A stretch of 27,271 nt of DNA from Acidimicrobiia bacterium (GCA_041557775.1 JBFFFX010000001.1:1-27271); one strand, 5' to 3'; counted from the stretch's first letter, positions 7,234 through 26,871 are shown. The notes: a model not told the origin generated them from the letters alone. Program-made: numbers and translations.

Positions 7234-7370
7234 CGGTTCCACGTCGAGCCTGCGCCTAGGGAATCGGCGCTGCCAGTACCGGAAGTCCCGGTGGAGGGGA
7301 CCCGAGAGCAGCGTTCTTCGAGTGACTTTCGCCCCCTGTGCCGCCGGGGCACCCGAACAGATCCTGGGGC

Positions 7371-8051: not shown

Positions 8052-8105
8052 GGTTCCTTCGCCGGGGTCTTCCTGCCCGAGCAGGTCCCCGCGAAGGGCG
8101 ATAGC

Positions 8106-8885: not shown

Positions 8886-8937
8886 ACCAGACGTCATCTC
8901 GGTGTAGCCTCGGCCGTGCCGACGACGGGAGCCGACA

Positions 8938-9300: not shown

Positions 9301-9321
9301 GCTGCGAATCACCTGGCCGGC

Positions 9322-9810
9322 TCAGTCCGCGGACCGTGTGACGTCGGCCACGGTGGCCTCGAGCCAGGACAGCGCTGCGCCCGCGTCCATCGTCACGGAC
9401 ACGCCGTGCGCTCCACCGCCGATCGAGAGCACATCGAGATCGGCGACCGCGGCATCCGCGACCACCGGCAGCGGCCGGCGACAGCCGAAGGGGGTGATGG
9501 TGCCTCGCTCGTAGCCCGTGACGTTCTGCGCCTCGTCGGCATCGGGCAGCGAGAGGCGCCGCTCGCCGAGGACGGTGCGGAGCTTCGGCCAGTCGATCGC
9601 CCTGTCGCCCGGCACCAGCACGAGGACGTGATCGCCCGCCCTCCGTCGCACCACGAGGGTCTTGATCAATGCGCGGACCGGAACCCCGCGAAGTGCGGCT
9701 GCCTCCTCCGCGCTCCGGGCACGGCCGGTACGCACGACGCGGTGCTCCAGGCCGGATGCGGCGACGGCCCGCAGCGCCGGCGTGTCGGGCGCTGCACTGT
9801 CAGCCGTCAG
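9322..9810 (-). CDS. YbaK/EbsC (aminoacyl-tRNA deacylase) family protein; start uncertain, CTG proposed
   Basis: IKTLVV (conserved Lys), LVLVPGD, A..VTGYERGTITPFG, SIGGGAHG. There is no in-frame ATG or GTG near the family N-terminus; CTG at 9810 has AGGAG 7 nt upstream. Confidence 0.8.
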   Translation of the reverse strand: MTADSAAPDTPALRAVAASGLEHRVVRTGRARSAEEAAALRGVPVRALIKTLVVRRRAGDHVLVLVPGDRAIDWPKLRTVLGERRLSLPDADEAQNVTGYERGTITPFGCRRPLPVVADAAVADLDVLSIGGGAHGVSVTMDAGAALSWLEATVADVTRSAD

Positions 9811-11368: not shown

Positions 11369-11495
11369 GGCGGGCAACTCCTGATGTCGGCGCATCGAGC
11401 CTACAGGTGACGACCGCCTCGGGTCCGGCGTGGGAGCAGTGGGTCTCTCTCGGCCGGCACGCGATAATCGGTGGGTGACCGAGGGAGGGTCTGTG

Positions 11496-12794: not shown

Positions 12795-13082
12795 GACCAT
12801 ATTCAAGGACGCACCTGTCGGCAGTTGGGCCCTGCCGTTCGGGGCAACGTCCCTCGCTGCCACTTCGGACTGGAAGTTCGCGAGAGAGGTGTGTGCGGCA
12901 AGAACGAGGTCGTGTGTTTACATTACGGAGGTCGCGACCGAGGCGGCAGGCATCGCTCCGGCCGATACGTCCGCACCACCACCGACCGAAGGGCCGGCGG
13001 AGAGCGAGACGACGGACAGGATCTCGATGAGCCGGTACGGTCGAGACCGTATGCCATTGCGCAGCCGACGAGGAGGAGAGAG

Positions 13083-14588: not shown

Positions 14589-14606
14589 CGAAAGGCTGAA
14601 TGAAGA

Positions 14607-15527
14607 GTGGGCCGGTTTGCCCTCCAGCGGGCGCTTCAGGGCCTGGTCGTCATCGTCGGAGTGACCATCGTGGTGTTCGTGGTCACCCGGTTGATCGGCG
14701 ATCCGGTGTCCCTGATGCTCCCGCTGGAGGCGACGGCCGAGGAGCGGGCGGCGTTTGCCGCGTCCCTCGGCCTCGACCGGTCCATTCCGGTGCAGTTCTG
14801 GGACTTCGTCCGGGGTGCCGTTCGCTTCGACTTCGGGGACTCGCTGTGGCAAGGAAGACCCGCCTTCGAGATCATCCTCGAGGTGCTGCCCCGCACGGTC
14901 ATGCTGGTCCTGGCGGGTCTCGGGCTGGCCATCGTTCTGGCGGTCCCGGTCGGGATCTTCGCCGCGCTGCGTCCTGGCTCGTGGACGGATCGCAGCCTCG
15001 TGGCGGGGAGCCTGTTCGGTCTGTCGGTTCCTCAGTTCTGGCTCGGTTTGATGTTGATCTTGTTCTTCGGCGTGACGCTGCGGCTGTTGCCGACGTCGGG
15101 TTCGGGGACCTTCCGCCATCTCATCCTGCCGGCGATCACGCTGGCGCTGCCCGCCTTCGGCCGGCTGACGATGATGGTGCGCTCGTCGATGATCGATGAG
15201 TTGGAGGCCGGCTATGTGGACACCGCCCGGGCCAAGGGCATGCCGGAATGGCGGACCGTGTTCGTGCACGCGTTCCGCAACGCCTCCAACCCGGTGGTCA
15301 CCTTGGCGGGGTGGGAGCTCATCCGAGCGATCGCCGGATACTCCGTAGTCGTGGAGACCGTGTTCGCCTGGCCGGGCATCGGCTTCATGGCGATCCAGGC
15401 GATTCAGCAGCAGGATCTGATTCTGTTGCAGGCGATCGTGTTCGTGGTGGCGGTCATCGTGGTGATCGTGAACCTGCTCTTGGACTTCGCTTACAAGCTC
15501 ATCGATCCCCGGATTCAGTTCGCATGA
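14607..15527 (+). CDS. ABC importer permease (DppB/OppB-like)
   Basis: GDP in the N-terminal region, SVPQFWLG, HLILPAITL and EAA loop YVDTARAKG. Confidence 0.92.
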   Translation: MGRFALQRALQGLVVIVGVTIVVFVVTRLIGDPVSLMLPLEATAEERAAFAASLGLDRSIPVQFWDFVRGAVRFDFGDSLWQGRPAFEIILEVLPRTVMLVLAGLGLAIVLAVPVGIFAALRPGSWTDRSLVAGSLFGLSVPQFWLGLMLILFFGVTLRLLPTSGSGTFRHLILPAITLALPAFGRLTMMVRSSMIDELEAGYVDTARAKGMPEWRTVFVHAFRNASNPVVTLAGWELIRAIAGYSVVVETVFAWPGIGFMAIQAIQQQDLILLQAIVFVVAVIVVIVNLLLDFAYKLIDPRIQFA

Positions 15528-16474
15528 CCGCATCGACCGACGCCCTCGATCCGACGGCGACCCTCGACCAGGACGCCAGTCATGTGTCGGCCGGCTTCTT
15601 CGCCGACCTGTGGCGGGACAAAGCCGGATTCATCGGTTTGGCGTTTCTGGTGATGCTCGTCGTGATCGCGGTGTTCGCTCCTGTGTTCGCTCCCCACGAT
15701 CCGGCGGCGCAACAACTCACGGAGCGTCTTCAACCCCCGGCGTGGGCGGACGGCGGGACCAGCACCCACCTGCTCGGCACGGACAACCTGGGCCGGGACG
15801 TGTTGTCGCGGCTCATCTACGGTGCGCGCATCTCGATCATGGTCGGTTTCGCGGTCGTCGCCGTCGCCGGGTCCGTAGGCGTCGTGGCCGGGCTCTTCGC
15901 CGGCTACAAGGGGGGCAGGGTCGATGCCACCATCATGCGGATCGTGGACACCCAGGTCGCGTTCCCGGGTCTCCTGCTGGCGCTGATCATCCTCACGGTC
16001 GTCGGTCCCAGTGCAACCACCGTGATCATCGTGCTCTCGATCAACGGCTGGATGGTGTACGCAAGGGTCACGAGAGGCGCGGTGCTCTCCCTCAAGGAGC
16101 GTGACTACGTGGAGGCGGCGGAATTGATCGGTGCGCCGTCGCGCCGGGTGATCTTCCGCCACATCTTGCCGGGTCTCACCGCCCCGCTGCTGACCCTGCT
16201 GATCCTCGAGTTTGCCCGCATCATCCTCGCCGAGGCCGCCCTTTCGTTCCTCGGCCTTGGGATCCAGCCGCCGCAGACGTCGTGGGGTCTCGATGTCGCC
16301 ATCGGCCGCGACTACATCTTCAACTCGTGGTGGCTGGTGACCTTCCCGGGCATCGCGATCGCTTTCACGGTGCTCAGCGCCAACATGGTGGCGAGTTGGT
16401 TCAGGATCCGCACCAATCCGCTGGCTCGCGCCAAGCGGTTCGCCGCCTACAGCGTGCGCGACGGAGATGTGTGA
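15524..16474 (+). CDS. ABC importer permease (DppC/OppC-like)
   Basis: ATGA overlap with the upstream stop. HLLGTDNLGRDVLSRLIYGARISI, EAA loop YVEAAELIGA, AEAALSFLGLGIQPP. Confidence 0.92.
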   Translation: MTASTDALDPTATLDQDASHVSAGFFADLWRDKAGFIGLAFLVMLVVIAVFAPVFAPHDPAAQQLTERLQPPAWADGGTSTHLLGTDNLGRDVLSRLIYGARISIMVGFAVVAVAGSVGVVAGLFAGYKGGRVDATIMRIVDTQVAFPGLLLALIILTVVGPSATTVIIVLSINGWMVYARVTRGAVLSLKERDYVEAAELIGAPSRRVIFRHILPGLTAPLLTLLILEFARIILAEAALSFLGLGIQPPQTSWGLDVAIGRDYIFNSWWLVTFPGIAIAFTVLSANMVASWFRIRTNPLARAKRFAAYSVRDGDV

Positions 16475-17492
16475 CGTGGCCCGCACCGATGCCCCGCTTC
16501 TCGAGGTCAAGGATCTCTCCGTGTCGTTCTTCACGCCCCGGGGGACGGTGCGCGCGGTCCGTGGCGTGAACCTCGCGCTGGGCGCAGGTGAGACGCTCGG
16601 GATCGTCGGCGAGTCGGGATCGGGTAAGACCGTGACGGCGCGGGCCATCCTCGGGCTGGTCGAGCTGCCGGGGAAGATCACCGGCGGCGATGTGATGTGG
16701 AAGGGCAAGTCGGTCGTCAACGGCTCACGGGCCCGCTCCCGGGCCCGGACGATGCGCGGCAAGGAAGCGTCGATGGTGTTCCAGAATCCCATGACGTCGC
16801 TCAACCCGCTCATCTCCATCGGCGATCAGATCGGCGAAGTACTGCGACACCATCTCGGTATGAAGAAGCCGGAGGCGCGGGAGCGGGCAATCGATCTGCT
16901 CGCGATCGTGGGCATGTCGAACCCCCAACGCCGGGTCGATCAGTACCCGCACGAGTTCTCCGGCGGGATGCGGCAGCGGGCGATGATCGCCATGGCGCTG
17001 GCCTGCGAGCCGGAGTTGCTCATCGCCGACGAGCCGACGACGGCGCTGGACGTCACGATCCAGGCGCAGATCCTCGAGCTGATCGCCGACCTCCAGCAGC
17101 GGCTCGGCCTGGCGGTCATCTTGATCACGCATGACCTGGCCGTGGTCGCCGGGGTCTGCCATCGCATCGAGGTGATGTACGCCGGGCGGTTCATCGAAGA
17201 GGGCTCTGCGCGGGACATGTTTCGCCGGCCGCGCCACCCGTACACGGCAGGCCTGCTGCGCTCCACGCCGCGCCTCGACGTCATCGTGCCGCGGCTGCAT
17301 GCGATCGACGGGGCGCCGCCGGACCTGCGCCTCCCCGTCCGGGGGTGTGCCTTCCATGCCCGATGCGAATACGGCCGCGCCGAATGCTTGACCGAGGAAC
17401 CGGTCCTGTTCGGCGCACCCGGCGAGCCGTCGGTGGCGTGCCGATTCCCGCTCGACACGGCCGTCGAGTTCACAAAGGCGCCGCATGAGTGA
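16467..17492 (+). CDS. ABC importer ATP-binding subunit (DppD/OppD-like)
   Basis: GESGSGKT, YPHEFSGGMRQR, LIADEPTTALDV, ITHD, HPYT and a C-terminal Cys cluster. Alternative start at GTG 16476. Confidence 0.92.
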   Translation: MCDVARTDAPLLEVKDLSVSFFTPRGTVRAVRGVNLALGAGETLGIVGESGSGKTVTARAILGLVELPGKITGGDVMWKGKSVVNGSRARSRARTMRGKEASMVFQNPMTSLNPLISIGDQIGEVLRHHLGMKKPEARERAIDLLAIVGMSNPQRRVDQYPHEFSGGMRQRAMIAMALACEPELLIADEPTTALDVTIQAQILELIADLQQRLGLAVILITHDLAVVAGVCHRIEVMYAGRFIEEGSARDMFRRPRHPYTAGLLRSTPRLDVIVPRLHAIDGAPPDLRLPVRGCAFHARCEYGRAECLTEEPVLFGAPGEPSVACRFPLDTAVEFTKAPHE

Positions 17493-18498
17493 GCCCCTCG
17501 TCCAAGTCGCCGATCTCAGCGTCCACTTCGACATGGGCCGCAAGGGTTTCTGGGGGTCGGAACGGCAGCACCTCTCGGCCGTCGACCACATCAGCTTTGC
17601 GATTGCGCCCGGTGAGGTGCTGGGGCTCGTCGGGGAATCGGGTTCAGGAAAGACCACGACGGGTCGCGCCATCTTGCGCCGCGTCCCCGCCGCCACGGGG
17701 TCGGTGCGTTTCGACGGTGCCGACATCACCACGCTGGACGGGGAGGAGCTGCGCCGGCTGCGGCGTCACATGCAGCCCGTCCACCAGGACCCGTATGGCA
17801 GCCTCAACCCGCGGCACTCGGTCCTGCAGATCATCGCCGAGCCGCTGCTCGTCCACGGGCTGATCGACAGGATCGAGGATGCTCGCGAGGAGGTGGGTGC
17901 CTTCTTGGACATGGTGGGCATGCCGCCCGACTCGCTCGACCGCTACCCGCATGCCTTCAGCGGCGGGCAGTTGCAGCGCATCGGGATCGCCCGGGCACTG
18001 GTGCTCAAGCCGCGGTTCATCGTGGCCGACGAGCCCGTGTCGGCGCTCGACGTCTCGATCCAGGCGCAGATCGTCAACCTCATGCAGGATCTGCGGTCAG
18101 AGCTCACCCTCACCTACCTGTTCATTGCGCACGATCTCTCCGTGGTGCGCCACATCTCGGACCGGATTGCGATCATGTATGCCGGGCAGCTCGTCGAGGT
18201 CGCCGGCAAGGACGCCGTGTACGACCGGCCCGCCCACCCCTACACGCAGGCGTTGCTCTCCGCGGTGCCGATCCCGGACCCGGAGATCGAGGCGAGACGG
18301 AAGCGCGTGCGGGTCGAGGGTGAGGTGCCCAATCTGATCGATCCCCCGCCGGGATGCCGCTTTGCCTCGCGCTGTCCGTTCGTGCAGGAGAGGTGCCGCG
18401 AGGAATCGCCTGTGCTGAGGGCGATCGGTGAGGGACACGAGGCGGCATGCCACTTCGTGGAGGACATCCCGCCGATCGAGCTGGCGGCGAGGACGTGA
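17485..18498 (+). CDS. ABC importer ATP-binding subunit (DppF/OppF-like)
   Basis: GESGSGKTT, YPHAFSGGQLQR, VADEPVSALDVS, IAHDL, HPYTQALLSAVP, PPPGCRFASRCP. Confidence 0.92.
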   Translation: MSEPLVQVADLSVHFDMGRKGFWGSERQHLSAVDHISFAIAPGEVLGLVGESGSGKTTTGRAILRRVPAATGSVRFDGADITTLDGEELRRLRRHMQPVHQDPYGSLNPRHSVLQIIAEPLLVHGLIDRIEDAREEVGAFLDMVGMPPDSLDRYPHAFSGGQLQRIGIARALVLKPRFIVADEPVSALDVSIQAQIVNLMQDLRSELTLTYLFIAHDLSVVRHISDRIAIMYAGQLVEVAGKDAVYDRPAHPYTQALLSAVPIPDPEIEARRKRVRVEGEVPNLIDPPPGCRFASRCPFVQERCREESPVLRAIGEGHEAACHFVEDIPPIELAART

Positions 18499-19268
18499 TG
18501 GATCTCGGACTGGCCGGCAAGCGGGCGCTCGTGCTCGGGTCGTCGTCGGGGATGGGGCGCGCCATTGCCGGGGGACTCGCCGCCGAAGGAGCGCGGGTTG
18601 TCGTGACTGGTCGGGACGAGGAGCGCCTGAGCGCGGTCGCAGGGTCTATGGGCGCCGCCGGGTCGATCGCGGCCGACCTGACGACCGACGATGGTGCGGC
18701 GCGCGTGGTCGCCGGAGCGCTCGACGCGCTGGGCGGACTCGACATCTTCGTGGGGAACACGGGGGGTGGGAAGCCAGGGGGCCTGGTCGATGGAGGCTTC
18801 GAGGCAGTGGAGGGCGGCTATCGCGCGATGCTGCTGCCGCAGCTGCGTGCGGCGCAGGCGGCGATCCCCGCCCTGCGCCGAACCGGTGACGGAAGGATGG
18901 TGTTCCTCACGGCCCGTTCGGTTCTGGAGGCCTCGCCCGATCTGGCGCTGTCGTCCGTGTTCCGCAGTGGCGTCGCCGCTGCGGCTCGATCCCTCGCGAT
19001 CGAGCTGGCACCGGACGTCACCGTCAACGTGGTCGTGCCCGGACAATTCGACACGGGAGCACTCGCCCGCTTCGAGGCCGCCCGGGCGCGCGCCGAGGAC
19101 CGCACGGTCGAGGAGGTGCGGGAGGACCACGTCGCCGCGATTCCCATGGGTCGTTTGGGCCGCGCCGAGGAGATCGCCGATCTGGTGCTCTTCTTGGTCT
19201 CCGCAAGGGCGGGATACATCACCGGAGCGACGTTCCGGATCGACGGCGGCCTCACCCGCGGCTTCTGA
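18498..19268 (+). CDS. Short-chain dehydrogenase/reductase, atypical active site
   Basis: MDLGLAGKRALVLGSSSGMG Rossmann motif, GNTGG, VNVVVPG, IPMGRLGRAEEIA, YITG...IDGG. The YxxxK position reads SSVFR. Confidence 0.88.
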   Translation: MDLGLAGKRALVLGSSSGMGRAIAGGLAAEGARVVVTGRDEERLSAVAGSMGAAGSIAADLTTDDGAARVVAGALDALGGLDIFVGNTGGGKPGGLVDGGFEAVEGGYRAMLLPQLRAAQAAIPALRRTGDGRMVFLTARSVLEASPDLALSSVFRSGVAAAARSLAIELAPDVTVNVVVPGQFDTGALARFEAARARAEDRTVEEVREDHVAAIPMGRLGRAEEIADLVLFLVSARAGYITGATFRIDGGLTRGF

Positions 19269-19280
19269 GCGGCGCGGACG

Positions 19281-20438
19281 GTGGGAGCAGAGACGGACCC
19301 GGGGAGCACCGCCCCCCGCCGCCCGCAGCGCGTCGCCATCATCGCCGTCACCCTGACGTACGTTGCCGTGACGGTCGGCGAATCGATCCTGGCTCCGGTG
19401 TTGCCGCTGGCGTCTGCAGATCTTGGATTCGGTGAGTCCGAAGCCGGCCGGCTGCTGGGTTTGCTCTCCCTCTCGGCGGGGGCCGGCAACCTCGCAGGCG
19501 GAATCGTGCTGGGCAGGTTCGGCCCGCGCCTCTCCTCCCTCGTCGGCGTCGGGACGACCACGCTCGGGGCGGGCCTTGCGGCAACCGGTGCGGGCGCGGG
19601 CCGATTCACCGTGGCGCACGTGCTGATGGGTCTCGGCGCCGGGATCTTCTTCGCCGGGGGTATCTACTCGATCGGGGTGCTCGCCGGCCCGGGACGGCGC
19701 GGGCGGGCGATGGGCCTCTACGGCATCGCGTACTCGCTTGCGCTCGCGGCCGCCGCCGGCATGGTTGCGGTGGTCGGAGCGAACGCGTGGCGGGGTGTCT
19801 TCGCCACTGCCGCAGGCCTCGGCCTCGTCGCCTTCATCGCCGTTGCCGTCGCCGGATTACCACCGCGACCGGAGAGGTCCGAGCGCGCACCGGGCCGCGG
19901 ACTCCGGTTGTTGGGCGTACCCGTTGCGGTCGGCGCAGTGGCCGCCGTCGCCCAATTCGGCCTCGCGGCGTTCCTCCCGACGTTTGCCGTCGACCGGTGG
20001 GCGGTCACCGCATCCACCGCCGCCATGATCCTGTTCGCCGGACGGGTCCTCTCCATCCCGGGAAAGGCTTGGGCCGGGCGCCTTGCCGACCGCTACGGCG
20101 CCATGGGGGCGGCCCGCCGCGTGACGTGGACCCTGCTGGCCAGCGGGATCGCCTGGCTGGTCGTGCCCGTGTCGGCGGTGGGGGCGGCGGCGGCCGCGAT
20201 CTTCGCCGCGGCGGCCGGGGCGATGTTCCCGGTCGCCAACGTCGTGGCAGTGGAGCGGTTCGGCGGCCGCGGCGGGCTGCTCGGGGTCTTCCGCTCGATG
20301 CAGATGGCCGTGGCCGGTGTCTCGGCATGGCTCGTCGGTCTGGGAGCGACGGCTGCGGGCCTGCGCAACGTGCTGTTGGCGGGCGTGGTGGCGCTGGCGG
20401 CGTTGCTCGCGGTCCGCCCGGAGCGGGAAGGAAGTTGA
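19281..20438 (+). CDS. Major facilitator superfamily transporter
   Basis: About 12 hydrophobic segments; motif A-like GIVLGRFGPR and GRLADRYG in the two halves. Confidence 0.85.
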   Translation: MGAETDPGSTAPRRPQRVAIIAVTLTYVAVTVGESILAPVLPLASADLGFGESEAGRLLGLLSLSAGAGNLAGGIVLGRFGPRLSSLVGVGTTTLGAGLAATGAGAGRFTVAHVLMGLGAGIFFAGGIYSIGVLAGPGRRGRAMGLYGIAYSLALAAAAGMVAVVGANAWRGVFATAAGLGLVAFIAVAVAGLPPRPERSERAPGRGLRLLGVPVAVGAVAAVAQFGLAAFLPTFAVDRWAVTASTAAMILFAGRVLSIPGKAWAGRLADRYGAMGAARRVTWTLLASGIAWLVVPVSAVGAAAAAIFAAAAGAMFPVANVVAVERFGGRGGLLGVFRSMQMAVAGVSAWLVGLGATAAGLRNVLLAGVVALAALLAVRPEREGS

Positions 20439-20445: not shown

Positions 20446-21282
20446 TCAGACGTCGGGCTCGTAGAAGGTTTCGGTCGAGGACCACATCTCCTCGGTCCGG
20501 TCGAGCCGGGCGGTCGCCGCGTCGTGGTCCTGGCGAGCGACTTCCATCACGAGCATCTCGGCAAGCGCCACTGCGGGGATCGAGCTGTCGAAGGGCCCGA
20601 TCGCCGGGACATCGACGGCGCACCAGAGGTGGGCGATCTGTGCGAGGGGGGAGAGCGGGCCGTCCGTGATGGCGACGATGGTGCCTGCGGACTCGGCGAC
20701 GACCTGCGCCGCGCGAACCACGGCCGTTCGATACCTGGGGAAGTCCACCACCAGGAGGACGTCTTGGGCGCCGATGTCGGCGAGATCGCGTCCCAGGTTG
20801 CGCTCCTCCAGCAAGCGCACGCCGGTGCGCACCATGCTCAACCCGCTCACCAGGGCATGGGCACCGGCCCGGGACGTCTCGCCGGACAGCACCCAGACGC
20901 GACCGGCCTCGAGGAGCGGTTTGGCGAGATCGGCGATGTGTCCGCCCTCGATTGCGGTGAAGACGGAATCGATCGACTGCTCGATCGCGGTGCGCGCATC
21001 CGACTCCGCACCGTGGCGGATTCGCACGCTGGGCCGGCTGAGCCGGAGTGCCAGGTCGCGCCGAATGTGCTCTTGCAGCTCGGGGTACCCGTCGAATCCG
21101 AGTTTGGTGGCGAAGCGGACGATCGACGGGCGGCTCGTACCCACCTCGAGGGCGAGGTCGGAGACCGTGCCGAAGGCGAGCAGGGTGGGGTCGGCCACGA
21201 CAGCCTCGGCGATGCGCCGCTCGGTGGGTGTCAGCCGAGTTCCGGCGGCGGCGATGAGCTGGGAGAGGGACGTTGGTGACAT
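20446..21282 (-). CDS. MurR/RpiR family transcriptional regulator (HTH + SIS)
   Basis: LTPTERRIAE...GTSRPSIVRFATKLGFDGYPELQ HTH. SIS domain with DVLLVVDFPRY and VAITDGPLSPLA. Confidence 0.92.
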   Translation of the reverse strand: MSPTSLSQLIAAAGTRLTPTERRIAEAVVADPTLLAFGTVSDLALEVGTSRPSIVRFATKLGFDGYPELQEHIRRDLALRLSRPSVRIRHGAESDARTAIEQSIDSVFTAIEGGHIADLAKPLLEAGRVWVLSGETSRAGAHALVSGLSMVRTGVRLLEERNLGRDLADIGAQDVLLVVDFPRYRTAVVRAAQVVAESAGTIVAITDGPLSPLAQIAHLWCAVDVPAIGPFDSSIPAVALAEMLVMEVARQDHDAATARLDRTEEMWSSTETFYEPDV

Positions 21283-21297
21283 AGGTCGTGAGCACTA

Positions 21298-21304
21298 TGT
21301 TACA
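21298..21304. promoter_or_regulatory. Candidate RpiR operator (TGT-T-ACA dyad)
   Basis: TGTTACA lies in the only AT-rich patch of the divergent intergenic region, 4 nt upstream of the predicted -35 box and 15 nt from the rpiR start. Confidence 0.3.
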
Positions 21305-21308
21305 AGCA

Positions 21309-21337
21309 TTGCTCCGTCCTGTGCAGGGGTGTACGCT
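21309..21337 (+). promoter_or_regulatory. Sigma70/SigA-type promoter for the aminomutase operon
   Basis: TTGCTC (21309-21314), 17-nt spacer, TACGCT (21332-21337). GGAGGT RBS ahead of ATG 21372. Confidence 0.5.
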
Positions 21338-21371
21338 GGCCGGTGGCGACGTCGGTTTGGAGGTAGTCGCG

Positions 21372-22817
21372 ATGGGCAGAGCGAAGTACGTACCCTCGGC
21401 GCGCGAGCAGGCGTTCCTCGACACGGTCGAGAACCCGAAGTACGACCGGCAGATCATCAACGGTCTGAAGATGTTTCTCGAACACCGCGAGCCGGACGAC
21501 ATGCGGGGTTTCTACAGCGACGCCGAGCTCGCGGTCCTCGCCGAACTGAAGGGCACGGAGCGCGACGTCGAGGCGCGCATGCCCGTGAAGGTCACCCGCC
21601 ACTACTTCGAACTGGCCAAGCACAGCAAGCCGCTCCAGCGGCTCGTGAAGGCGAGTCCCGATGAGACGATCGATCTCGCCGGCGCCGAAGATCCCGGCTA
21701 TCAGATGGACTACAGCCCCGTCGAGGGGCTGCTGCACAAGTACGAGATGGGACTCATGTACGTCATCTCGACGTGCTCGGCGCATTGCCGCTTCTGCTAC
21801 CGCGAGGAGCTGATCGCCCGCAAGGAAGTGGAGCGCGCCGACGGAACCGTCGCTCCCAAGGGCCTTGCCCAGGTCTTGGAGGTCACCGACTACATCAAGG
21901 CGCACAACGCCATCGTGGCCGCGAACGGCGGGCTCCATCCCGAATCGGGACGCGAGAAGCTTCGTGAGATCCTGCTCTCCGGAGGCGACCCGATGGTGCT
22001 GCCCAACAGCAAGATCGCCGCGTGGTTCGCTGCGCTCGCCGAAGCGGGGATCGAGTCGATTCGCCTCGGCACCAAGGAGATGGCGTTCCACCCCGATCGC
22101 TTCGACGACGCCTTCCTCGCCATGCTGGACAACTTCCACGCCGCCTACCCCGAGGTCGGGTTCCGGCTGATGATCCACTTCAACCACCCGGACGAGTTCC
22201 TGTTGAAGGACGGCGACGGCAACTACGTCGAGAACGACAACGGGACGTTGAAGTGGCACCCGGCGACGAGGCGCGCGATGAACGCCGTTGCGGGACGCGG
22301 CTGGATCAGCGTCGAGAACCAGGCGCCGATCATCAAAGGCATCAACGACGATCCCGATGCGCTCCGGATCATGCAGCGCGCCCTCAAGCGTGTGGGCGTC
22401 GAGAACCACTACTTCTTCTGCGGCAGGGACATCGTTGCCTACCGGGCCTTCAACGTGCCGATCGAGACCGCGTGGCACATCCTCAACGAGTCGCAGAAGG
22501 GGCTCTCCGGGGTGGAGAACCATGCCCGGCTCTCGATCACGCACTACAAGGGGAAGACCGAGGTCGCTGCGGTGACCAACGAGCCGATCCCCGGTGTGCC
22601 CGGGACCGAGAACGGCGTGCTGATCTTCAAGATCTTGCGCAACGCCGCGGATGCGAAGGACCGGGGCAAGGTCTGCATCGTGGGGCGCAACCCGGAGGCG
22701 ATCTGGTTCGACGACTACGCCGATCGGGTGGTCTACGACGAGGCAGGACTCTACGACTACGACCGAGTCACGTACGCACGCGAGGTGCCGGTGAGCATCG
22801 GGGTCGCCGGCCGATGA
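21372..22817 (+). CDS. KamA-family radical-SAM/PLP 2,3-aminomutase, probably not lysine-specific
   Basis: DYSPVEGLLHKY, CSAHCRFCYR (CxxxCxxC), ILLSGGDP, IRLGTK, HFNHPDE, NQAPIIKGINDD, LSG..., GKTEV (putative PLP lysine). 481 aa from ATG 21372. Confidence 0.88.
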   Translation: MGRAKYVPSAREQAFLDTVENPKYDRQIINGLKMFLEHREPDDMRGFYSDAELAVLAELKGTERDVEARMPVKVTRHYFELAKHSKPLQRLVKASPDETIDLAGAEDPGYQMDYSPVEGLLHKYEMGLMYVISTCSAHCRFCYREELIARKEVERADGTVAPKGLAQVLEVTDYIKAHNAIVAANGGLHPESGREKLREILLSGGDPMVLPNSKIAAWFAALAEAGIESIRLGTKEMAFHPDRFDDAFLAMLDNFHAAYPEVGFRLMIHFNHPDEFLLKDGDGNYVENDNGTLKWHPATRRAMNAVAGRGWISVENQAPIIKGINDDPDALRIMQRALKRVGVENHYFFCGRDIVAYRAFNVPIETAWHILNESQKGLSGVENHARLSITHYKGKTEVAAVTNEPIPGVPGTENGVLIFKILRNAADAKDRGKVCIVGRNPEAIWFDDYADRVVYDEAGLYDYDRVTYAREVPVSIGVAGR

Positions 22818-22872
22818 AAGCGGCTTGGCGATCGAACGAGATTCGATCGCCGGCCCGAGTGGAGGTCGGGAG

Positions 22873-23583
22873 ATGATCGACAAACGAGTCGGTAGCCCGG
22901 CGGAGGCAGTAGCCGACATCCCAGATGGCGCCACAGTCATGATCGGCGGCTTCGGAGAAGCGGGCAGCCCCATCGAGCTGATCCACGCGCTCATCGACCA
23001 GGGCGCCACCGGCCTCACCGTGGTCAACAACAACACCGGTAGCGGCGAGGTCGGCCTGGCCGCGCTGATCAAGGCCGAGCGCGTGGCCAAGATGATTTGC
23101 TCGTTCCCGCGCACCGCCAACTCGACCGTCTTCCCCGAGCTGTATCGCGCCGGGAAGACGGAGCTGGAGCTCGTCCCCCAAGGCACGCTCGCCGAGCGGA
23201 TCCGCGCCGGAGGCGCCGGCATCCCGGCGTTCTTCACCGCGACCTCGGTGGGCACGCCGCTCCAGGGGGCCAAGGAGGTGCGTCGCTTCGGTGAGCGGGA
23301 CTACGTGATGGAGCACGGACTCACCGCCGACTACGCCCTCATCAAGTGCGCCCGGTCTGATCGCTACGGCAACCTGATCTACAACAAGACCGCCCGTAAC
23401 TTCAGTCCCGTGATGGCGACTGCGGCGGCGATCACGATCGTGCAGACCCGCGAGGTCGTCGAACCCGGCGACATCGATCCGGAGACGGTCGTGACACCGG
23501 GCATCTTCGTCCATCGCCTCGTGACCGTGTCCAACCCCCTGATCGAGTCCGAGCTGGTGGCAGCGGGGGCGACGTACCCATGA
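22873..23583 (+). CDS. pcaI: 3-oxoadipate (3-oxoacid) CoA-transferase subunit A
   Basis: DGATVMIGGFGEAGSP, NNNTGSGEVGLAAL, CSFPR...VFPELYRAGK.ELELVPQGTLAERIRAGG, GNLIY.KTARNF.PVMA, TPGIFV; closely matches Pseudomonas PcaI as I recall it. GGAGGT RBS 6 nt before ATG 22873. Confidence 0.85.
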   Translation: MIDKRVGSPAEAVADIPDGATVMIGGFGEAGSPIELIHALIDQGATGLTVVNNNTGSGEVGLAALIKAERVAKMICSFPRTANSTVFPELYRAGKTELELVPQGTLAERIRAGGAGIPAFFTATSVGTPLQGAKEVRRFGERDYVMEHGLTADYALIKCARSDRYGNLIYNKTARNFSPVMATAAAITIVQTREVVEPGDIDPETVVTPGIFVHRLVTVSNPLIESELVAAGATYP

Positions 23584-24242
23584 CCAGCACCTCGACCACG
23601 ATCGGCTGGACCCGCGACGAGATGGCGCAGCGCGCGGCCCTCGACATCCCCAACGGGGCCTACGTGAACCTCGGTATCGGCATTCCCGAGCGCGTGGCCA
23701 AGTACGTGCCCGCCGGTCGCGAGGTGATCTACCACACAGAGAACGGCCTGCTCGGCATGGGCCCGGCCCCCGAGACGGGACACGGTGACCCGGAGCTGAT
23801 CAATGCAGGGAAGCGCCAGGTGACCGCAATCCCGGGGGCGGCGTTCTTCCATCATGCCGACAGCTTCGTGATGATTCGCGGGGGCCACATCGACCTCTGC
23901 GTGCTCGGTGCCATGCAGGTCGCCCAGAACGGCGACCTCGCCAACTGGTCCACAGGTGCGACGGATGCGATCCCGGCGGTCGGCGGCGCGATGGATCTCG
24001 TCGCCGGCGTGCGCACGATTCACGTCATCACCCAGCACACCACCAAGACCGGCGAGCCGAAGCTGGTCGAGTCATGTACGTACCCGCTGACCGGACCGGG
24101 TGTCGTCGACCGGGTCTACACGGATCTCGCCGTCATGGACGTAGGATCGGGCGGTTTCCATGTCCGGGAGCTGGCACCCAGAGTGACCTTCGACTACCTC
24201 CAGGAGCGCACTGCCGGTGCGCTCGTCCCGAGGGGGAGATGA
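23580..24242 (+). CDS. pcaJ: 3-oxoadipate (3-oxoacid) CoA-transferase subunit B
   Basis: ATGA overlap with pcaI. GAYVNLGIG, HTENG (catalytic Glu), LINAGK, FFHHADSF, GDLANW.TG...IPAVGGAMDL, CTYPLTG, YTDLAV. Confidence 0.85.
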   Translation: MTSTSTTIGWTRDEMAQRAALDIPNGAYVNLGIGIPERVAKYVPAGREVIYHTENGLLGMGPAPETGHGDPELINAGKRQVTAIPGAAFFHHADSFVMIRGGHIDLCVLGAMQVAQNGDLANWSTGATDAIPAVGGAMDLVAGVRTIHVITQHTTKTGEPKLVESCTYPLTGPGVVDRVYTDLAVMDVGSGGFHVRELAPRVTFDYLQERTAGALVPRGR

Positions 24243-25567
24243 TGACCGCGCAACCGCAGTTTCACGTCTCGAAGAGCGAAGCCCTGTACGACCGGGCGAA
24301 GAAGGTGTTGCCCGGCGGCGTGAGCAGGAACACCGTGCTGCGCTCGCCGCACCCCGTGTACGTCGATCACGCCGAGGGCTGTCGTGTCACCGACATCGAA
24401 GGCGTCACACGTATCGACTTTGCGAACAACATGGCCTCGCTGATCCACGGCCATGCCCATCCGGTGGTCATGGATGCGGTCGCCGCCCAGCTTCGCAATG
24501 GCACCGGCTTCACGCTGGCCACGGAGATCGAAGTGCGGTACGCGGAGCATCTCGTGGCCCGGAGCGCGAGCTTCGAGAAGGTCCGCTTCGTCAACTCGGG
24601 CACCGAGGCCGTGATGGCGGCGCTCAAGGCCGCCCGAGCCTTCACGGGCCGCGCCAAGATCGCCAAGGTCGAGGGTGCCTACCACGGCGGGTACGACTAC
24701 GCCGAGGTCAGCCAGACGTCGACGCCGGCCAATTGGGGCAAGGACGACAGCCCGGTCAGCGTACCGGTGGCCTACGGCACGCCTCCCAAGGCCCTCGAAG
24801 ACGTCGTCGTCATCCCGTTCAACGACCCGGCCAAGGCGCGATCGATCCTCGACCGGCATCGAGGCGAGATCGCGTGCGTCCTCATCGACCCGCTCCCGCA
24901 CCGCGTCGGTCTCCTCCCGGCGACGCCCGCGTTTGTCGAGATGCTGGGGGAATGGACCACCGAGGATGAGGCATTGCTGATCTTCGATGAGGTCATCACG
25001 TTCCGATCCGAGTACGGCGGGGCGCAGGAGTGGTACGACGTGCATCCCGACCTCACCGCGATGGGGAAGATCGTCGGCGGCGGCTTCCCGGTCGGTGCGC
25101 TGGCGGGCAGGAGCGCGGTGATGGATGTGATGAACCCGCTGGCATCGCAGGTTCGCTTCCCGCACTCGGGCACGTTCTCCGCGAATCCGATCACGATGAC
25201 GGCAGGGCTCACGGCGATGGAACTGTTCAACCGCCCGGCCGTCCACCGAGTGAACGCGCTCGCCGCCCGGGCCCGTCGCGGTATCGAGGACGCCATCGCC
25301 GAGGCCGGTGTCGCGGCCTGCGTCTCCGGCGGCGGATCGATGCTCCGGGTCCACATGAAGCCGGAGCTGCCGGCGAATTACCGCGAAGCGTTCTCGTCGC
25401 CGGAGGAGAAGCGGCGACTCGACATCATGCTCGACCACCTCTTCGACAGCGGCTTCCTCATGATCAACACGTGCTCGCTCACGACTTCGACCGTCAGGGG
25501 TGAGGCGGAGGTGGACGGGCTGGTGGAGGCCATGCGGCACGGATTCCGCAAGATCGCCCGGCTGTAG
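24239..25567 (+). CDS. Class III PLP aminotransferase, GSAM-like fold, beta-amino-acid transaminase type
   Basis: ATGA overlap with pcaJ. PGGVSR, RFVNSGTEA, EGAYHG, FDEVITFR, DLTAMGK (PLP lysine), HSGTFSANP. Lacks the HemL PGGVNSPVRAF motif. Confidence 0.85.
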   Translation: MMTAQPQFHVSKSEALYDRAKKVLPGGVSRNTVLRSPHPVYVDHAEGCRVTDIEGVTRIDFANNMASLIHGHAHPVVMDAVAAQLRNGTGFTLATEIEVRYAEHLVARSASFEKVRFVNSGTEAVMAALKAARAFTGRAKIAKVEGAYHGGYDYAEVSQTSTPANWGKDDSPVSVPVAYGTPPKALEDVVVIPFNDPAKARSILDRHRGEIACVLIDPLPHRVGLLPATPAFVEMLGEWTTEDEALLIFDEVITFRSEYGGAQEWYDVHPDLTAMGKIVGGGFPVGALAGRSAVMDVMNPLASQVRFPHSGTFSANPITMTAGLTAMELFNRPAVHRVNALAARARRGIEDAIAEAGVAACVSGGGSMLRVHMKPELPANYREAFSSPEEKRRLDIMLDHLFDSGFLMINTCSLTTSTVRGEAEVDGLVEAMRHGFRKIARL

Positions 25568-25599: not shown

Positions 25600-26871
25600 A
25601 TGTCACCATTGCCCGACCATCTCTTGCCCGACACCGCTCGCGTCGACGAGAACGGGCAGCTCGTCATCGGTGGCTGCAACACGCTCGAGCTGGCCGACCG
25701 CTTCGGAACACCGTTGTTCGTGTACGACGTCGCCCACCTGCGCGCCCGGTGCCGGGAAGCTCGGGCGGCTTTTGGCGATGGCGCGATCTATGCCGCCAAG
25801 GCCTTCATGTGCAAGGCCATGGTGCGCATCGTGGCGGAAGAAGGGCTGCGGATGGACGTCGCCACCGGGGGAGAGCTGCACACGGCCCTCGCCGCCGGCT
25901 TCCCCCCGGACCGGCTCGTGATGCACGGCAACAACAAGACGGTCGCCGAGCTGCAGCGCGCCGTCGACGCCGGCGTGGGCCGCATCGTGGTGGACAGCTT
26001 CGACGAGTTGGACCGCCTCGAGGCGCTGGCTGCGGAGCGCACCGAGCCGATTCCGATCCTGCTGCGCATCACGCCGGGCGTCGAGGCCCACACCCACGAG
26101 TACACCGCCACCGGGCACGACGACACGAAGTTCGGGTTCACCGTGTCCTCCGGACTGGCGACACAAGCGGTCGAGCGCACGCAGCGGATCGCCGGCCTCG
26201 ATCTGCACGGCGTGCACGCCCACATCGGCTCGCAGGTGTTCCGCGTCGAGTCGTTCGCCGAGGCGCTGGCCGTCGTGGCTGCGTTCGCCGAGCCGTACGG
26301 ATTCGCAGAGATCACCACCGGCGGCGGTCTCGGCGTCGCGTATGTGGTGGGGGAGCAGGCGCCGAGCCTCACCGAGTGGGCGGAGGTACTCGGAGAAGCC
26401 AAGCGTCGCGCCGGACTCACGGCACGACTTTCGGTGGAGCCGGGGCGAGCCATCGTTGCCACCGCTGCGGTCACGCTGTACACGGTCGGCACCATCAAGC
26501 CGCTCCCCGGCATCCGCACGTATGTCGCCGTCGATGGCGGGATGAGCGACAACCCTCGGCCGGTGCTGTACGACAGCGGATACGAGACGTTCCTGCCCCG
26601 GGCCGTCGCGGCCGAGCGGGACGCGACGATCCGCCTCGTCGGCAAGCACTGCGAGTCCGGCGACGTGCTGGTCCGGAGCGGCCTGGTGCCGTCCGACATG
26701 CGGATCGGCGACATCATCGCCACGCCGGTCACGGGCGCCTACGGCCATTCCATGGGCTCGAACTACAACAAGGTCCCGCGCCCCGCGGTGGTGTTCGTCG
26801 AGGCCGGCGAAGCCCGCCTCGTCGTCCGTCGCGAGACGTACGACGATCTCCTTGCCACCGACGTGGGCTGA
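25600..26871 (+). CDS. lysA: Diaminopimelate decarboxylase
   Basis: FGTPLFVYD, YAAKAF (PLP lysine), HGNNK, KFG, HAHIGSQ, GGGLG, VEPGR, VDGGMSDN.RP.LY, GKHCESGD, GAY...M.SNYN. Confidence 0.93.
   Translation: MSPLPDHLLPDTARVDENGQLVIGGCNTLELADRFGTPLFVYDVAHLRARCREARAAFGDGAIYAAKAFMCKAMVRIVAEEGLRMDVATGGELHTALAAGFPPDRLVMHGNNKTVAELQRAVDAGVGRIVVDSFDELDRLEALAAERTEPIPILLRITPGVEAHTHEYTATGHDDTKFGFTVSSGLATQAVERTQRIAGLDLHGVHAHIGSQVFRVESFAEALAVVAAFAEPYGFAEITTGGGLGVAYVVGEQAPSLTEWAEVLGEAKRRAGLTARLSVEPGRAIVATAAVTLYTVGTIKPLPGIRTYVAVDGGMSDNPRPVLYDSGYETFLPRAVAAERDATIRLVGKHCESGDVLVRSGLVPSDMRIGDIIATPVTGAYGHSMGSNYNKVPRPAVVFVEAGEARLVVRRETYDDLLATDVG

What the first reader, a model, noticed from the sequence alone, without database searches (positions are those of the whole stretch)
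20446..25567. Candidate new catabolic pathway: radical-SAM 2,3-aminomutase + beta-transaminase + 3-oxoadipate CoA-transferase under an RpiR regulator
Seen in sequence: four co-oriented genes (KamA-like, pcaI, pcaJ, class III transaminase). pcaI/pcaJ and pcaJ/transaminase overlap by ATGA, there is one clear upstream promoter, and RpiR is divergent. Established: KamA-family enzymes move an alpha-amino group to C3, beta-transaminases turn beta-amino acids into 3-oxo acids, and PcaIJ activates 3-oxoadipate using succinyl-CoA. Inference: the three activities chain without a gap. The leading model is L-2-aminoadipate -> 3-aminoadipate -> 3-oxoadipate -> 3-oxoadipyl-CoA, then thiolysis to succinyl-CoA + acetyl-CoA by a thiolase not present in this window. 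This would be a redox-neutral entry from lysine-derived aminoadipate into the lower beta-ketoadipate pathway, bypassing 2-oxoadipate dehydrogenase and glutaryl-CoA dehydrogenase, and could suit low-oxygen growth. Alternatives are glutamate -> beta-glutamate -> 3-oxoglutarate, or another acidic amino acid. I know of no characterised aminoadipate 2,3-aminomutase, but a literature check is needed.
Basis: partly seen in the sequence, partly recalled or inferred. Interest (0 to 1): 0.9.

Follow-up and report, generated by a model that had tools for sequence, protein, structure and literature searches.

The report
Predicted 2-aminoadipate breakdown operon
This regulated four-gene operon, found almost unchanged in eight bacterial phyla, most likely breaks down the lysine product 2-aminoadipate by shifting its amino group one carbon with an uncharacterised radical enzyme and passing the product to the known beta-ketoadipate end steps; I found no description of such a route.

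Summary
A divergent RpiR gene faces four co-oriented genes: a KamA-like radical SAM protein, 3-oxoacid CoA-transferase subunits A and B, and a class III aminotransferase. Both ATGA overlaps are real.

- **Mutase:** it has the lysine 2,3-aminomutase fold, the CxxxCxxC cluster motif and the PLP lysine. It scores far below every curated KamA subfamily cut-off. Arg sits where lysine 2,3-aminomutase has Asp293.
- **Transaminase:** its nearest solved relative is a proven beta/gamma-amino-acid transaminase.
- **Conservation:** the module recurs at 75-90% mutase identity in 80 loci from eight phyla.
- **Thiolase:** 17 loci add a thiolase, and three of four tested pass NCBI's 3-oxoadipyl-CoA thiolase cut-off. 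This genome has a truncated copy on another contig.
- **Lysine link:** in one relative, piperideine-6-carboxylate dehydrogenase and a lysine-dehydrogenase-like gene sit directly upstream. In one genus of the family, an extra copy of the dehydrogenase lies 13 kb away.

Best reading (about 0.6): 2-aminoadipate -> 3-aminoadipate -> 3-oxoadipate -> 3-oxoadipyl-CoA. The substrate is inferred, not shown. No matching pathway turned up in the literature. Earlier follow-ups in this scan met the same module on other DNA and read it the same way.

The parts
20446..21282 (-). RpiR/MurR-family transcriptional regulator (HTH_6 + SIS), divergent from the operon
   Evidence: Pfam HTH_6 52.7 bits (cut-off 28.3) and SIS 36.8 bits (cut-off 25). 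An ortholog sits next to the mutase in 55 of 80 loci.
21276..21303 (.). Inverted repeat GTGACATAG-N10-CTATGTTAC in the divergent control region, overlapping the RpiR start codon. Candidate operator, not tested.
   Evidence: the repeat finder: 9-nt arms, 89% complementary. GTTACA-type motifs are kept in the intergenic regions of relatives. No sigma-70-like promoter was found.
21372..22817 (+). Divergent KamA-family radical SAM / PLP enzyme, predicted amino-acid 2,3-aminomutase (481 aa). Key residues: Cys135/139/142 cluster, GGD 204-206, Arg144, Arg352, Lys395.
   Evidence: TIGR00238 scores 87.9 bits against a cut-off of 199.2, and all equivalog models score far below cut-off. A family profile hits LAM 2A5H at E 1.8e-35. 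The AF2 model has pLDDT 92 and its best PDB hit is 2A5H at E 3.6e-18.
22873..23583 (+). 3-oxoacid CoA-transferase subunit A (PcaI/ScoA family)
   Evidence: TIGR02429 326.9 bits (cut-off 128.5). Best PDB relatives are succinyl-CoA:3-ketoacid CoA-transferases. Orthologs at 66-91% identity lie in 73 of 80 loci.
23580..24242 (+). 3-oxoacid CoA-transferase subunit B (PcaJ/ScoB family). Its start overlaps the subunit A stop (ATGA).
   Evidence: TIGR02428 295.5 bits (cut-off 243.55). Overlap read. PDB relatives.
24239..25567 (+). Class III aminotransferase of the GSAM-like beta-transaminase type (442 aa). Key residues: Arg30, Asn64, Lys277. Its start overlaps the subunit B stop (ATGA).
   Evidence: Best PDB hit is 6K8H, the Sphaerobacter thermophilus omega-transaminase, at 391.8 bits. 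HemL structures score about 245 bits or less. HemL models are below cut-off: 338.8 against 398, and 332.4 against 527.3. Residue mapping. 6K8H's activity on beta/gamma-amino acids is reported in PMC10589169.
12825..20438 (+). Possibly associated uptake block: SBP_bac_5 binding protein, two permeases and two ATPases (12825-18498), an SDR (18447-19268) and an MFS transporter (19281-20438)
   Evidence: Pfam. The same block is syntenic with the module in three genera. In genus g250 its far side carries a second piperideine-6-carboxylate dehydrogenase. The association is contextual only.

Best explanation
The operon encodes a short catabolic route that turns an alpha-amino dicarboxylate, most likely L-2-aminoadipate from lysine or pipecolate breakdown, into a 3-oxoacyl-CoA.
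1. The KamA-like radical SAM/PLP enzyme moves the amino group from C2 to C3, giving 3-aminoadipate.
2. The GSAM-like beta-transaminase converts that to 3-oxoadipate.
3. The PcaIJ-type CoA-transferase makes 3-oxoadipyl-CoA, using succinyl-CoA.
4. A PcaF-type thiolase splits it into succinyl-CoA and acetyl-CoA. It is encoded elsewhere in this genome and inside the module in other lineages.

The divergent RpiR regulator probably controls the operon.

Shown here: gene identities, family memberships, the LAM-like fold and catalytic motifs, conservation of the module, and the neighbouring genes in relatives. Inferred: every activity, the order of steps, the substrate and the regulator's ligand.
For: **Mutase**
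- Cys135/139/142 align to LAM Cys125/129/132, and Arg144 aligns to Arg134.
- Lys395 is invariant across 45 family members, including a canonical LAM-like one, and lies in the G-K motif that I recall as LAM's PLP lysine (Lys337). The HMM alignments stop before that region.
- Arg352 aligns to LAM Asp293 in a profile alignment and is invariant in the family. No acidic residue lies at the Asp330 region.
- This fits a substrate with an anionic rather than cationic far end.
- The AF2 model has pLDDT 92 and matches 2A5H 13 orders of magnitude better than any other chain.

**Transaminase**
- The nearest solved relative is a beta/gamma-amino-acid transaminase.
- Its carboxylate-binding Arg36, Asn70 and catalytic Lys282 are conserved here as Arg30, Asn64 and Lys277.

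**CoA-transferase**
- It scores well over both 3-oxoacid CoA-transferase cut-offs.

**Conservation**
- The module is in 10 of 11 family genomes, in at least three different flanks.
- It is in 80 loci of eight phyla: mutase 80, CoA-transferase A 73, B 70, transaminase 63, RpiR 55.
- The mutase orthogroup is tight, sits behind a long stem, and is mixed across phyla.

**C6 dicarboxylate**
- A thiolase lies in the module in 17 of 80 loci.
- Three of four tested pass the PcaF equivalog cut-off: 672, 603 and 680 bits against 597.
- This genome has a truncated PcaF-like gene on contig C94, scoring 420 bits over 264 of 400 positions. It is 70% identical to a module thiolase.

**Source of 2-aminoadipate**
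- In L081, a piperideine-6-carboxylate dehydrogenase equivalog (801 bits, cut-off 730) lies directly upstream of RpiR. A saccharopine/lysine-dehydrogenase-family gene overlaps its end.
- In G512 and G423, a second copy of that dehydrogenase lies 13 kb from the module. It sits in the transporter block that abuts the operon in this window.

**Expression**
- Sediment metatranscriptome contigs with 0 mismatches cover RpiR through the transaminase. The MFS flank is near zero.
Against: - No activity has been measured for any member of this mutase group.
- Arg at the Asp293 position is shared with a large radiation of uncharacterised KamA-like proteins in unrelated contexts. It is therefore not a specific aminoadipate signature.
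- PcaF-type thiolase is over its cut-off in 30 of 41 genomes of the family, and piperideine-6-carboxylate dehydrogenase in 33 of 41. The module is in only 11 of 41, so their presence does not discriminate.
- Only 1 of 80 loci has lysine-to-aminoadipate genes directly adjacent.
- No piperideine-6-carboxylate dehydrogenase was found in this 72%-complete genome.
- One module thiolase (L113) is below the PcaF cut-off.
- RpiR/SIS regulators usually sense sugar phosphates, which this pathway lacks.
- KamA-type enzymes are oxygen-sensitive, and the operon here has no ferredoxin of its own.
Confidence: 0.6

Rival explanations
1. Same three-enzyme logic, but the substrate is L-glutamate (or imported beta-glutamate). 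The route would be glutamate <-> beta-glutamate -> 3-oxoglutarate. That product would then either decarboxylate to acetoacetate, which the ScoAB-like transferase activates, or be activated to 3-oxoglutaryl-CoA.
For: The Arg at the Asp293 position also suits a shorter acidic side chain. The best solved relatives of the CoA-transferase are succinyl-CoA:acetoacetate (SCOT) enzymes. From my own knowledge, a glutamate 2,3-aminomutase exists in the KamA family.
Against: The protein scores 73.7 bits against a cut-off of 650 for the glutamate 2,3-aminomutase model. The thiolases that join the module are PcaF equivalogs, that is, the C6 dicarboxylate type. The neighbours in L081, G512 and G423 make 2-aminoadipate, not glutamate. 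By inference, glutamate already has one-step entry into central metabolism.
Confidence: 0.12
2. Same logic with another alpha-amino acid that has an anionic or zwitterionic far end. Candidates are 2-aminopimelate, meso-diaminopimelate from imported cell-wall peptides, or a phosphono/sulfo amino acid.
For: A peptide-type (SBP_bac_5) ABC transporter adjoins the module in four genomes of three genera, and an amidase sits next to RpiR in two of them. In other lineages a Liv-type amino-acid transporter and a CN-hydrolase adjoin it. From my own knowledge, PcaF/PaaJ-type thiolases also take longer dicarboxylyl-CoAs.
Against: No diaminopimelate-specific enzyme travels with the module. The adjacent lysA is the only lysA in the genus, so it is a housekeeping neighbour. 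The only amino-acid-forming enzymes found beside the module make 2-aminoadipate.
Confidence: 0.13
3. Different order of steps. The beta-amino acid is first activated by the CoA-transferase, and the class III enzyme then acts on the beta-aminoacyl-CoA. This is how the 3-aminobutyryl-CoA transaminase Kat works in the alternative lysine fermentation route.
For: The gene order mutase, CoA-transferase A/B, transaminase matches this sequence of steps. An acyl-CoA beta-transaminase exists (PMC3149608, listed).
Against: The transaminase keeps the Arg (Arg30) that binds the free carboxylate of beta-amino acids in its closest characterised relative. The transferase is a strong member of the 3-oxoacid CoA-transferase family. 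Gene order also varies between lineages.
Confidence: 0.08
4. The radical SAM protein is not an aminomutase. It carries out some other radical reaction, and the neighbouring genes serve ordinary ketone-body or acetoacetate use.
For: It fails every curated KamA cut-off. It lacks LAM's zinc cysteines: the only Cys residues are 135, 139, 142, 350 and 434. It also has extra insertions.
Against: The LAM fold, the cluster motif and the invariant lysine at the PLP-lysine motif are all kept. Linkage to a beta-type transaminase and a CoA-transferase persists across eight phyla at 75-90% identity, which would be unexplained.
Confidence: 0.07

Closest known systems
Lysine 2,3-aminomutase KamA/LAM (Clostridium subterminale, PDB 2A5H) and the KamA radical SAM family (AblA, EpmB, arginine and glutamate 2,3-aminomutases)
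   Same: Same fold: Foldseek E 3.6e-18, TM 0.68 normalised to the target. It shares the CxxxCxxC cluster motif, the GGD motif, the Arg134 equivalent and an invariant lysine at the PLP-lysine motif.
   Different: Identity in the structural alignment is only 18-19%. It falls below all curated family cut-offs. Arg replaces Asp293 and no acidic residue sits at the Asp330 region. There is no C-terminal zinc cysteine motif. It has an N-terminal extension of about 60 residues and two insertions, giving 481 aa against 416. Its context is catabolic, with a transaminase and a CoA-transferase.
Lower beta-ketoadipate pathway (PcaIJ 3-oxoadipate:succinyl-CoA transferase plus PcaF 3-oxoadipyl-CoA thiolase)
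   Same: The CoA-transferase subunits pass TIGR02429 and TIGR02428. Orthologs of these subunits sit next to PcaF-equivalog thiolases in other lineages.
   Different: No aromatic ring-cleavage (pca/cat) genes are nearby, and the thiolase is not in this window. Here 3-oxoadipate would come from an amino acid. PcaIJ was not separated from ScoAB by any test made here.
Beta-amino-acid transaminases of the GSAM-like class III group (Sphaerobacter thermophilus omega-TA 6K8H; Mesorhizobium 2YKU and Variovorax 4AO9 beta-Phe transaminases)
   Same: Full-length match to 6K8H at 391.8 bits. Arg36, Asn70 and Lys282 are conserved.
   Different: The known enzymes were studied on aromatic and aliphatic beta-amino acids. 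A dicarboxylic beta-amino acid such as 3-aminoadipate has not been tested for them or for this protein.
Lysine fermentation pathway (KamA, KamDE, Kdd, Kce, Kal or Kat, AtoAD) and known 2-aminoadipate catabolism via 2-oxoadipate (HglS/DUF1338, or glutaryl-CoA)
   Same: It combines a KamA-type mutase with a family I CoA-transferase, and it deals with lysine-derived carbon.
   Different: None of KamDE, Kdd, Kce, Kal, 2-oxoadipate dehydrogenase or DUF1338 is in the module. The predicted intermediates, 3-aminoadipate and 3-oxoadipate, are not part of either known route (literature searches).

Membership tests
KamA family radical SAM proteins (TIGR00238) | Score over the curated family cut-off | tested here: not met
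   87.9 bits against a cut-off of 199.2. It is a remote branch. A profile of the branch still finds LAM 2A5H at E 1.8e-35.
KamA family radical SAM proteins (TIGR00238) | CxxxCxxC [4Fe-4S] motif and GGD/GGE SAM-binding motif | tested here: met
   C135-x3-C139-x2-C142 aligns to LAM Cys125/129/132. GGD 204-206 is present, with G204 and G205 invariant and D206 nearly so.
KamA family radical SAM proteins (TIGR00238) | PLP-binding lysine (LAM Lys337) | tested here: inconclusive
   Lys395 in the G-K motif is invariant in 45 sequences, including a canonical LAM-like one. The HMM alignments to 2A5H end before this region, so the match to Lys337 rests on my recalled LAM sequence. PLP binding itself is not testable here.
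KamA family radical SAM proteins (TIGR00238) | LAM-type fold | tested here: met
   The AF2 model has pLDDT 92 and pTM 0.90. Its best PDB hit is 2A5H at E 3.6e-18, and the next hit is at 1.5e-05.
Lysine 2,3-aminomutase (TIGR03820) | Asp293 and Asp330, which bind the lysine epsilon-amino group, and a score over cut-off | tested here: not met
   Arg352 sits at the Asp293 position and there is no acidic residue in the Asp330 region. The score is 69.5 bits against 525.4.
Glutamate 2,3-aminomutase (TIGR04368) | Score over the equivalog cut-off | tested here: not met
   73.7 bits against 650.
3-oxoacid CoA-transferase, PcaIJ/ScoAB family (TIGR02429 / TIGR02428) | Both subunits over the curated cut-offs | tested here: met
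   326.9 bits against 128.5, and 295.5 against 243.55.
3-oxoacid CoA-transferase, PcaIJ/ScoAB family (TIGR02429 / TIGR02428) | Specificity for 3-oxoadipate (PcaIJ) rather than acetoacetate (ScoAB) | tested here: inconclusive
   Solved relatives are all SCOT-type. Orthologs at 66-74% identity lie next to PcaF-equivalog thiolases. No specificity test is possible with these tools.
Glutamate-1-semialdehyde 2,1-aminomutase HemL (TIGR00713) | Score over the equivalog cut-off | tested here: not met
   332.4 bits against 527.3, and NF000818 338.8 against 398.
GSAM-like beta-amino-acid transaminases | Closest characterised relative is a beta-transaminase, and the carboxylate-binding Arg and catalytic Lys are kept | tested here: met
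   6K8H at 391.8 bits. Arg30, Asn64 and Lys277 correspond to Arg36, Asn70 and Lys282 (PMC10589169). There is no curated model for this group.
RpiR/MurR regulators | N-terminal HTH_6 plus C-terminal SIS domain | tested here: met
   Both are over the Pfam cut-offs. No NCBIfam equivalog is reached.
Beta-ketoadipate lower pathway | PcaF 3-oxoadipyl-CoA thiolase present | tested here: inconclusive
   It is not in the window. A truncated PcaF-like gene lies at a contig end (C94): 419.6 bits over 264 of 400 positions, under the 597 cut-off as it stands. Three of four module thiolases tested from other lineages pass the cut-off.

The most novel reading that the evidence does not exclude
This is the first 2-aminoadipate 2,3-aminomutase. 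With a beta-transaminase, it forms an undescribed redox-neutral, oxygen-independent link from lysine catabolism to the beta-ketoadipate end pathway (2-aminoadipate -> succinyl-CoA + acetyl-CoA). The module has spread by gene transfer through sediment and marine bacteria of at least eight phyla.
Probability: 0.55. Interest if true: 0.8.

Novelty: new variant of a known kind. Interest (0 to 1): 0.72.

Why it matters
**New enzyme and route.** If true, it adds a new substrate class (acidic C6 amino acids) to the radical SAM aminomutases. It also adds a fourth, very short way to dispose of lysine-derived 2-aminoadipate. That route skips 2-oxoadipate dehydrogenase and glutaryl-CoA dehydrogenase, or alternatively HglS.

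**Ecology.** The module is highly conserved and widespread in uncultured sediment, soil and marine bacteria, including Acidimicrobiia, Woeseiaceae, Gemmatimonadota and Planctomycetota. It may therefore matter for amino-acid turnover in low-oxygen habitats.

**Applications.** The enzymes would be of interest for making beta-amino dicarboxylates and adipate-pathway intermediates.

**Wider family.** It gives a first functional foothold in a large radiation of KamA-like proteins that carry Arg at the Asp293 position and have no known function.

Tried and rejected
- **Phyletic correlation within the family:** a lysine 6-transaminase model found only sub-threshold paralogs (0 of 41 over cut-off).
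- **PcaF and piperideine-6-carboxylate dehydrogenase:** both are near-ubiquitous in the family, so they do not track the module.
- **Phylum-wide sample:** none of 400 other genomes carried the mutase, which showed only that the gene is patchy.
- **Contexts of 40-50% identical relatives:** P0127, P0129, P0134, P0137 and P0141 lie in unrelated neighbourhoods and say nothing about substrate.
- **TPP enzymes and amidases near some modules:** they belong to different subfamilies, and I rejected them as core parts.
- **lysA as a pathway member:** rejected, because it is the only lysA of the genus.
- **The 476-aa 'hypothetical protein' near the closest plasmid CoA-transferase (Tistrella):** it is not the mutase.
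- **Lower-identity cluster representatives P0124 and P0135:** these came from fragmented or frameshifted assemblies and added only RpiR, thiolase and CoA-transferase adjacency.
- **Sigma-70 promoter scan:** no hits.
- **Active-site geometry:** the structure tool returns no coordinates, so I could not inspect it.
- **PcaIJ versus ScoAB phylogeny:** not done, for lack of labelled reference sequences.

Full report
**1. Observation**

The window is one whole contig of a 2.4-Mb, 72%-complete, 68% G+C metagenome-assembled genome. Relatives are labelled Acidimicrobiia.

Between 20446 and 25567 lie five genes:
- an RpiR-family regulator (20446-21282, minus strand; HTH_6 plus SIS);
- a KamA-like radical SAM gene (21372-22817), with its ATG 8 nt after GGAGG;
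- 3-oxoacid CoA-transferase subunit A (22873-23583);
- 3-oxoacid CoA-transferase subunit B (23580-24242);
- a class III aminotransferase (24239-25567).

Both ATGA start/stop overlaps are in the sequence. The 'one clear promoter' was not reproduced: a sigma-70 consensus scan found none. The 89-bp divergent region holds an inverted repeat at 21276-21303 and GTTACA-type motifs that recur in relatives.

**2. The radical SAM enzyme**

*Family placement.* It reaches only 88 bits on the general KamA model (cut-off 199). It reaches 70-84 bits on the lysine, arginine, glutamate, EpmB and AblA-like models, whose cut-offs are 369-650.

*Relation to LAM.* A profile of the protein and its relatives finds lysine 2,3-aminomutase 2A5H at E 1.8e-35. 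An AlphaFold model (pLDDT 92, pTM 0.90) matches 2A5H at E 3.6e-18, and the next chain scores 1.5e-05.

*Residue mapping*:
- Cys135/139/142 correspond to LAM Cys125/129/132.
- Arg144 corresponds to Arg134.
- GGD lies at 204-206.
- Lys395 is invariant in all 45 aligned family members and lies in the G-K motif. I take it as the PLP lysine. Its match to LAM Lys337 rests on my recalled LAM sequence, because the HMM alignments end before that region.
- Arg352, invariant in the family, occupies the Asp293 position.
- The Asp330 region has no acidic residue.

In LAM those two aspartates hold the lysine epsilon-ammonium (established knowledge). The swap to Arg points to an anionic distal group.

*Caveat.* The same Arg occurs in a large radiation of uncharacterised KamA-like proteins ('QCRP...SHxxGK'). 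These pass only the general family model.

*Other differences.* The only cysteines are 135, 139, 142, 350 and 434, so LAM's zinc site is absent.

**3. The partners**

*CoA-transferase.* The subunits are strong members of the PcaI/ScoA and PcaJ/ScoB families. Their solved relatives are SCOT enzymes.

*Aminotransferase.* It is below the HemL cut-offs. Its best solved relative, at 392 bits, is the Sphaerobacter thermophilus omega-transaminase 6K8H, followed by ForI at 341 bits. HemL structures score about 245 bits or less. 6K8H is active on beta- and gamma-amino acids, and its Arg36 is described as holding the substrate carboxylate (PMC10589169). Arg36, Asn70 and Lys282 align to Arg30, Asn64 and Lys277 here.

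**4. Conservation**

*Distribution.* More than 2,000 relatives were found at E <= 0.001, and the 120 best listed are 78-91% identical. In sampled genomes the gene is patchy:
- none of 400 other genomes across the phylum;
- 12 of 401 in the class, 11 of them (with this genome) in the window's own family;
- 11 of 41 in a family sample.

*Linkage within the family.* In 10 of 11 family genomes, RpiR, mutase, CoA-transferase A/B and transaminase stay together, in at least three different flanks.

*Linkage across phyla.* A scan of species-representative genomes gave 584 relatives. The best 80 (75-90% identity) come from Actinomycetota, Pseudomonadota, Planctomycetota, Gemmatimonadota, Acidobacteriota, Chloroflexota, Myxococcota and Krumholzibacteriota. 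Counts among the 80 loci, many of them cut by contig ends, are: mutase 80, CoA-transferase A 73, B 70, transaminase 63, RpiR 55.

*Two layouts.* One is the layout seen here. The other is gammaproteobacterial: RpiR, CoA-transferase A, B, a thiolase and a second GSAM-like transaminase run divergently from the mutase.

*Tree.* The mutase tree shows a tight orthogroup behind a long stem (5.3 changes per site), with phyla interleaved. This indicates horizontal spread.

*More distant relatives.* Relatives at 40-50% identity lie in unrelated contexts.

**5. Which substrate?**

Three independent pieces of context point to a C6 dicarboxylate, and specifically to 2-aminoadipate.

(a) *Thiolase in the module.* Seventeen of 80 loci carry a thiolase in the module. 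Three of four tested exceed NCBI's equivalog cut-off for 3-oxoadipyl-CoA thiolase PcaF: 672, 603 and 680 bits against 597. One scores 477. The window's genome has a PcaF-like gene cut by the end of contig C94. It scores 420 bits over 264 of 400 positions and is 70% identical to an Acidimicrobiia module thiolase. It lies next to an AidB-like acyl-CoA dehydrogenase.

(b) *Lysine-to-aminoadipate genes in L081.* In the Acidimicrobiales locus L081, the genes directly upstream of RpiR are two. The first is a piperideine-6-carboxylate dehydrogenase equivalog (801 bits against 730). That enzyme makes 2-aminoadipate. The second overlaps its end and is a 364-aa saccharopine/lysine-dehydrogenase-family protein. 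Its PDB hits are 3IC5, 3ABI and saccharopine reductase, and its atlas clusters are named lysine or saccharopine dehydrogenase.

(c) *Extra dehydrogenase copy in G512 and G423.* These genomes each have a second copy of that dehydrogenase, 13 kb from the module. The block order is MFS, P6C dehydrogenase, GntR, SDR, Opp-like ABC transporter, GntR, TPP enzyme, amidase, RpiR, mutase. The same binding protein, permeases, ATPases, SDR and MFS abut the operon in this window. In G512 a DAO-family flavoenzyme follows the transaminase. From my own knowledge, this is the family of pipecolate oxidase.

*Limits of this evidence.*
- PcaF and the dehydrogenase are common in the family with or without the module.
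- The dehydrogenase was not found in this incomplete genome.
- Only one of 80 loci has direct adjacency.

**6. Other points**

- The lysA next to the operon is the only lysA in the genus, so it is a housekeeping neighbour.
- A conjugative Mesorhizobium plasmid carries a variant: mutase (70.5% identity), ferredoxin FdxA, GSAM-like transaminase, and a different type of CoA-transferase whose alpha subunit is unannotated. It offers a culturable test system and suggests the reductant.
- Short contigs from four sediment or soil metatranscriptome runs match RpiR through the transaminase without mismatches. The MFS flank is nearly empty. This is weak support for expression, because DNA carry-over cannot be excluded.

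**7. Literature**

Searches for aminomutase with CoA-transferase, for beta-glutamate or 3-oxoglutarate, for 3-aminoadipate, and for aminoadipate with aminomutase or 3-oxoadipate found no description of this pathway or enzyme. Known 2-aminoadipate catabolism goes through 2-oxoadipate, for example by DUF1338/HglS.

**8. Earlier notes of this scan**

The same module has been met on other DNA and read the same way. I treated these notes as leads. I re-tested the thiolase link, the lysine-gene link and the ferredoxin on my own loci.

**9. Verdict**

- The mechanism, alpha-to-beta shift followed by beta-transamination and CoA activation of a 3-oxoacid, is well supported by family and context (about 0.8).
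- 2-aminoadipate is the best-supported substrate (about 0.6).
- All activities remain unmeasured.

Noticed in passing
window 25600-26871: A diaminopimelate decarboxylase gene (lysA, 447 bits against a cut-off of 298) follows the operon after a 32-bp gap. It is the only lysA found in this genome and in the near-complete genome of the same genus. So the last gene of lysine synthesis sits beside a putative lysine-catabolite operon, apparently by chance.
   Followed up: yes
window 12825-20438; L143 and L144: An SBP_bac_5 ABC transporter, an SDR and an MFS transporter form a block that stays next to the module in three genera. In genus g250 its far side carries a second piperideine-6-carboxylate dehydrogenase and a GntR regulator. 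The transported compound is unknown. It may be a lysine-derived compound or a peptide.
   Followed up: partly
L025 (G641) 8276-15500: In the one carrier outside the family, only RpiR and the mutase remain. Downstream lie a DUF4143 AAA ATPase and an IrrE/HTH pair instead of the CoA-transferase and transaminase. This looks like an insertion or a decayed module.
   Followed up: partly
L140 (Mesorhizobium sp. 113-3-3 plasmid NZ_AP023244.1) 9986-14837: A culturable rhizobium carries a variant module on a conjugative plasmid: mutase, FdxA ferredoxin, transaminase, an unannotated and possibly truncated CoA-transferase alpha reading frame, and a 'CoA-transferase subunit beta' of another type. The mutase is annotated only as a hypothetical protein.
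   Followed up: partly
L138 (Tistrella mobilis plasmid pTM2) 599-8391: The closest plasmid-borne homolog of the CoA-transferase (71% identity) lies near three lysine-catabolism-type genes: a piperideine-6-carboxylate dehydrogenase equivalog (798 bits), a DUF1338 (HglS-type) gene and an aspartate-transaminase-like gene. No mutase is present. This clade of transferases may have a wider link to lysine catabolism.
   Followed up: partly
proteins P0187-P0269: Many KamA-family proteins of 320-480 aa share Arg at the LAM Asp293 position ('QCRP') and an 'SHxxGK' PLP-lysine motif. The five I scanned pass or approach the general family model but reach no equivalog. Their substrates are unknown.
   Followed up: no
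L087, L095, L106, L113, L117 (about 2-9 kb upstream of the mutase): In a clade of Acidimicrobiales MAGs (some labelled Microthrix or Poriferisocius), the module is preceded by a CN-hydrolase fused to DUF2848 and a Liv-type amino-acid ABC transporter. This hints at uptake of an amino acid or an amide precursor.
   Followed up: partly
window 9800-12794: Two adenylate-forming enzymes lie just upstream of the transporter block: an AMP-binding enzyme (9800-11395, minus strand) and a PaaK-like ligase (11430-12794, plus strand). An unrelated AMP-binding gene also sits next to RpiR in four other loci.
   Followed up: no
G000 contig C94 (L131) 2-8478: The truncated PcaF-like thiolase lies downstream of an AidB-like acyl-CoA dehydrogenase. 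It is also near a thioesterase, an alpha/beta hydrolase and a long (756-aa) reading frame with a class III aminotransferase domain. This is not an aromatic pca cluster.
   Followed up: partly
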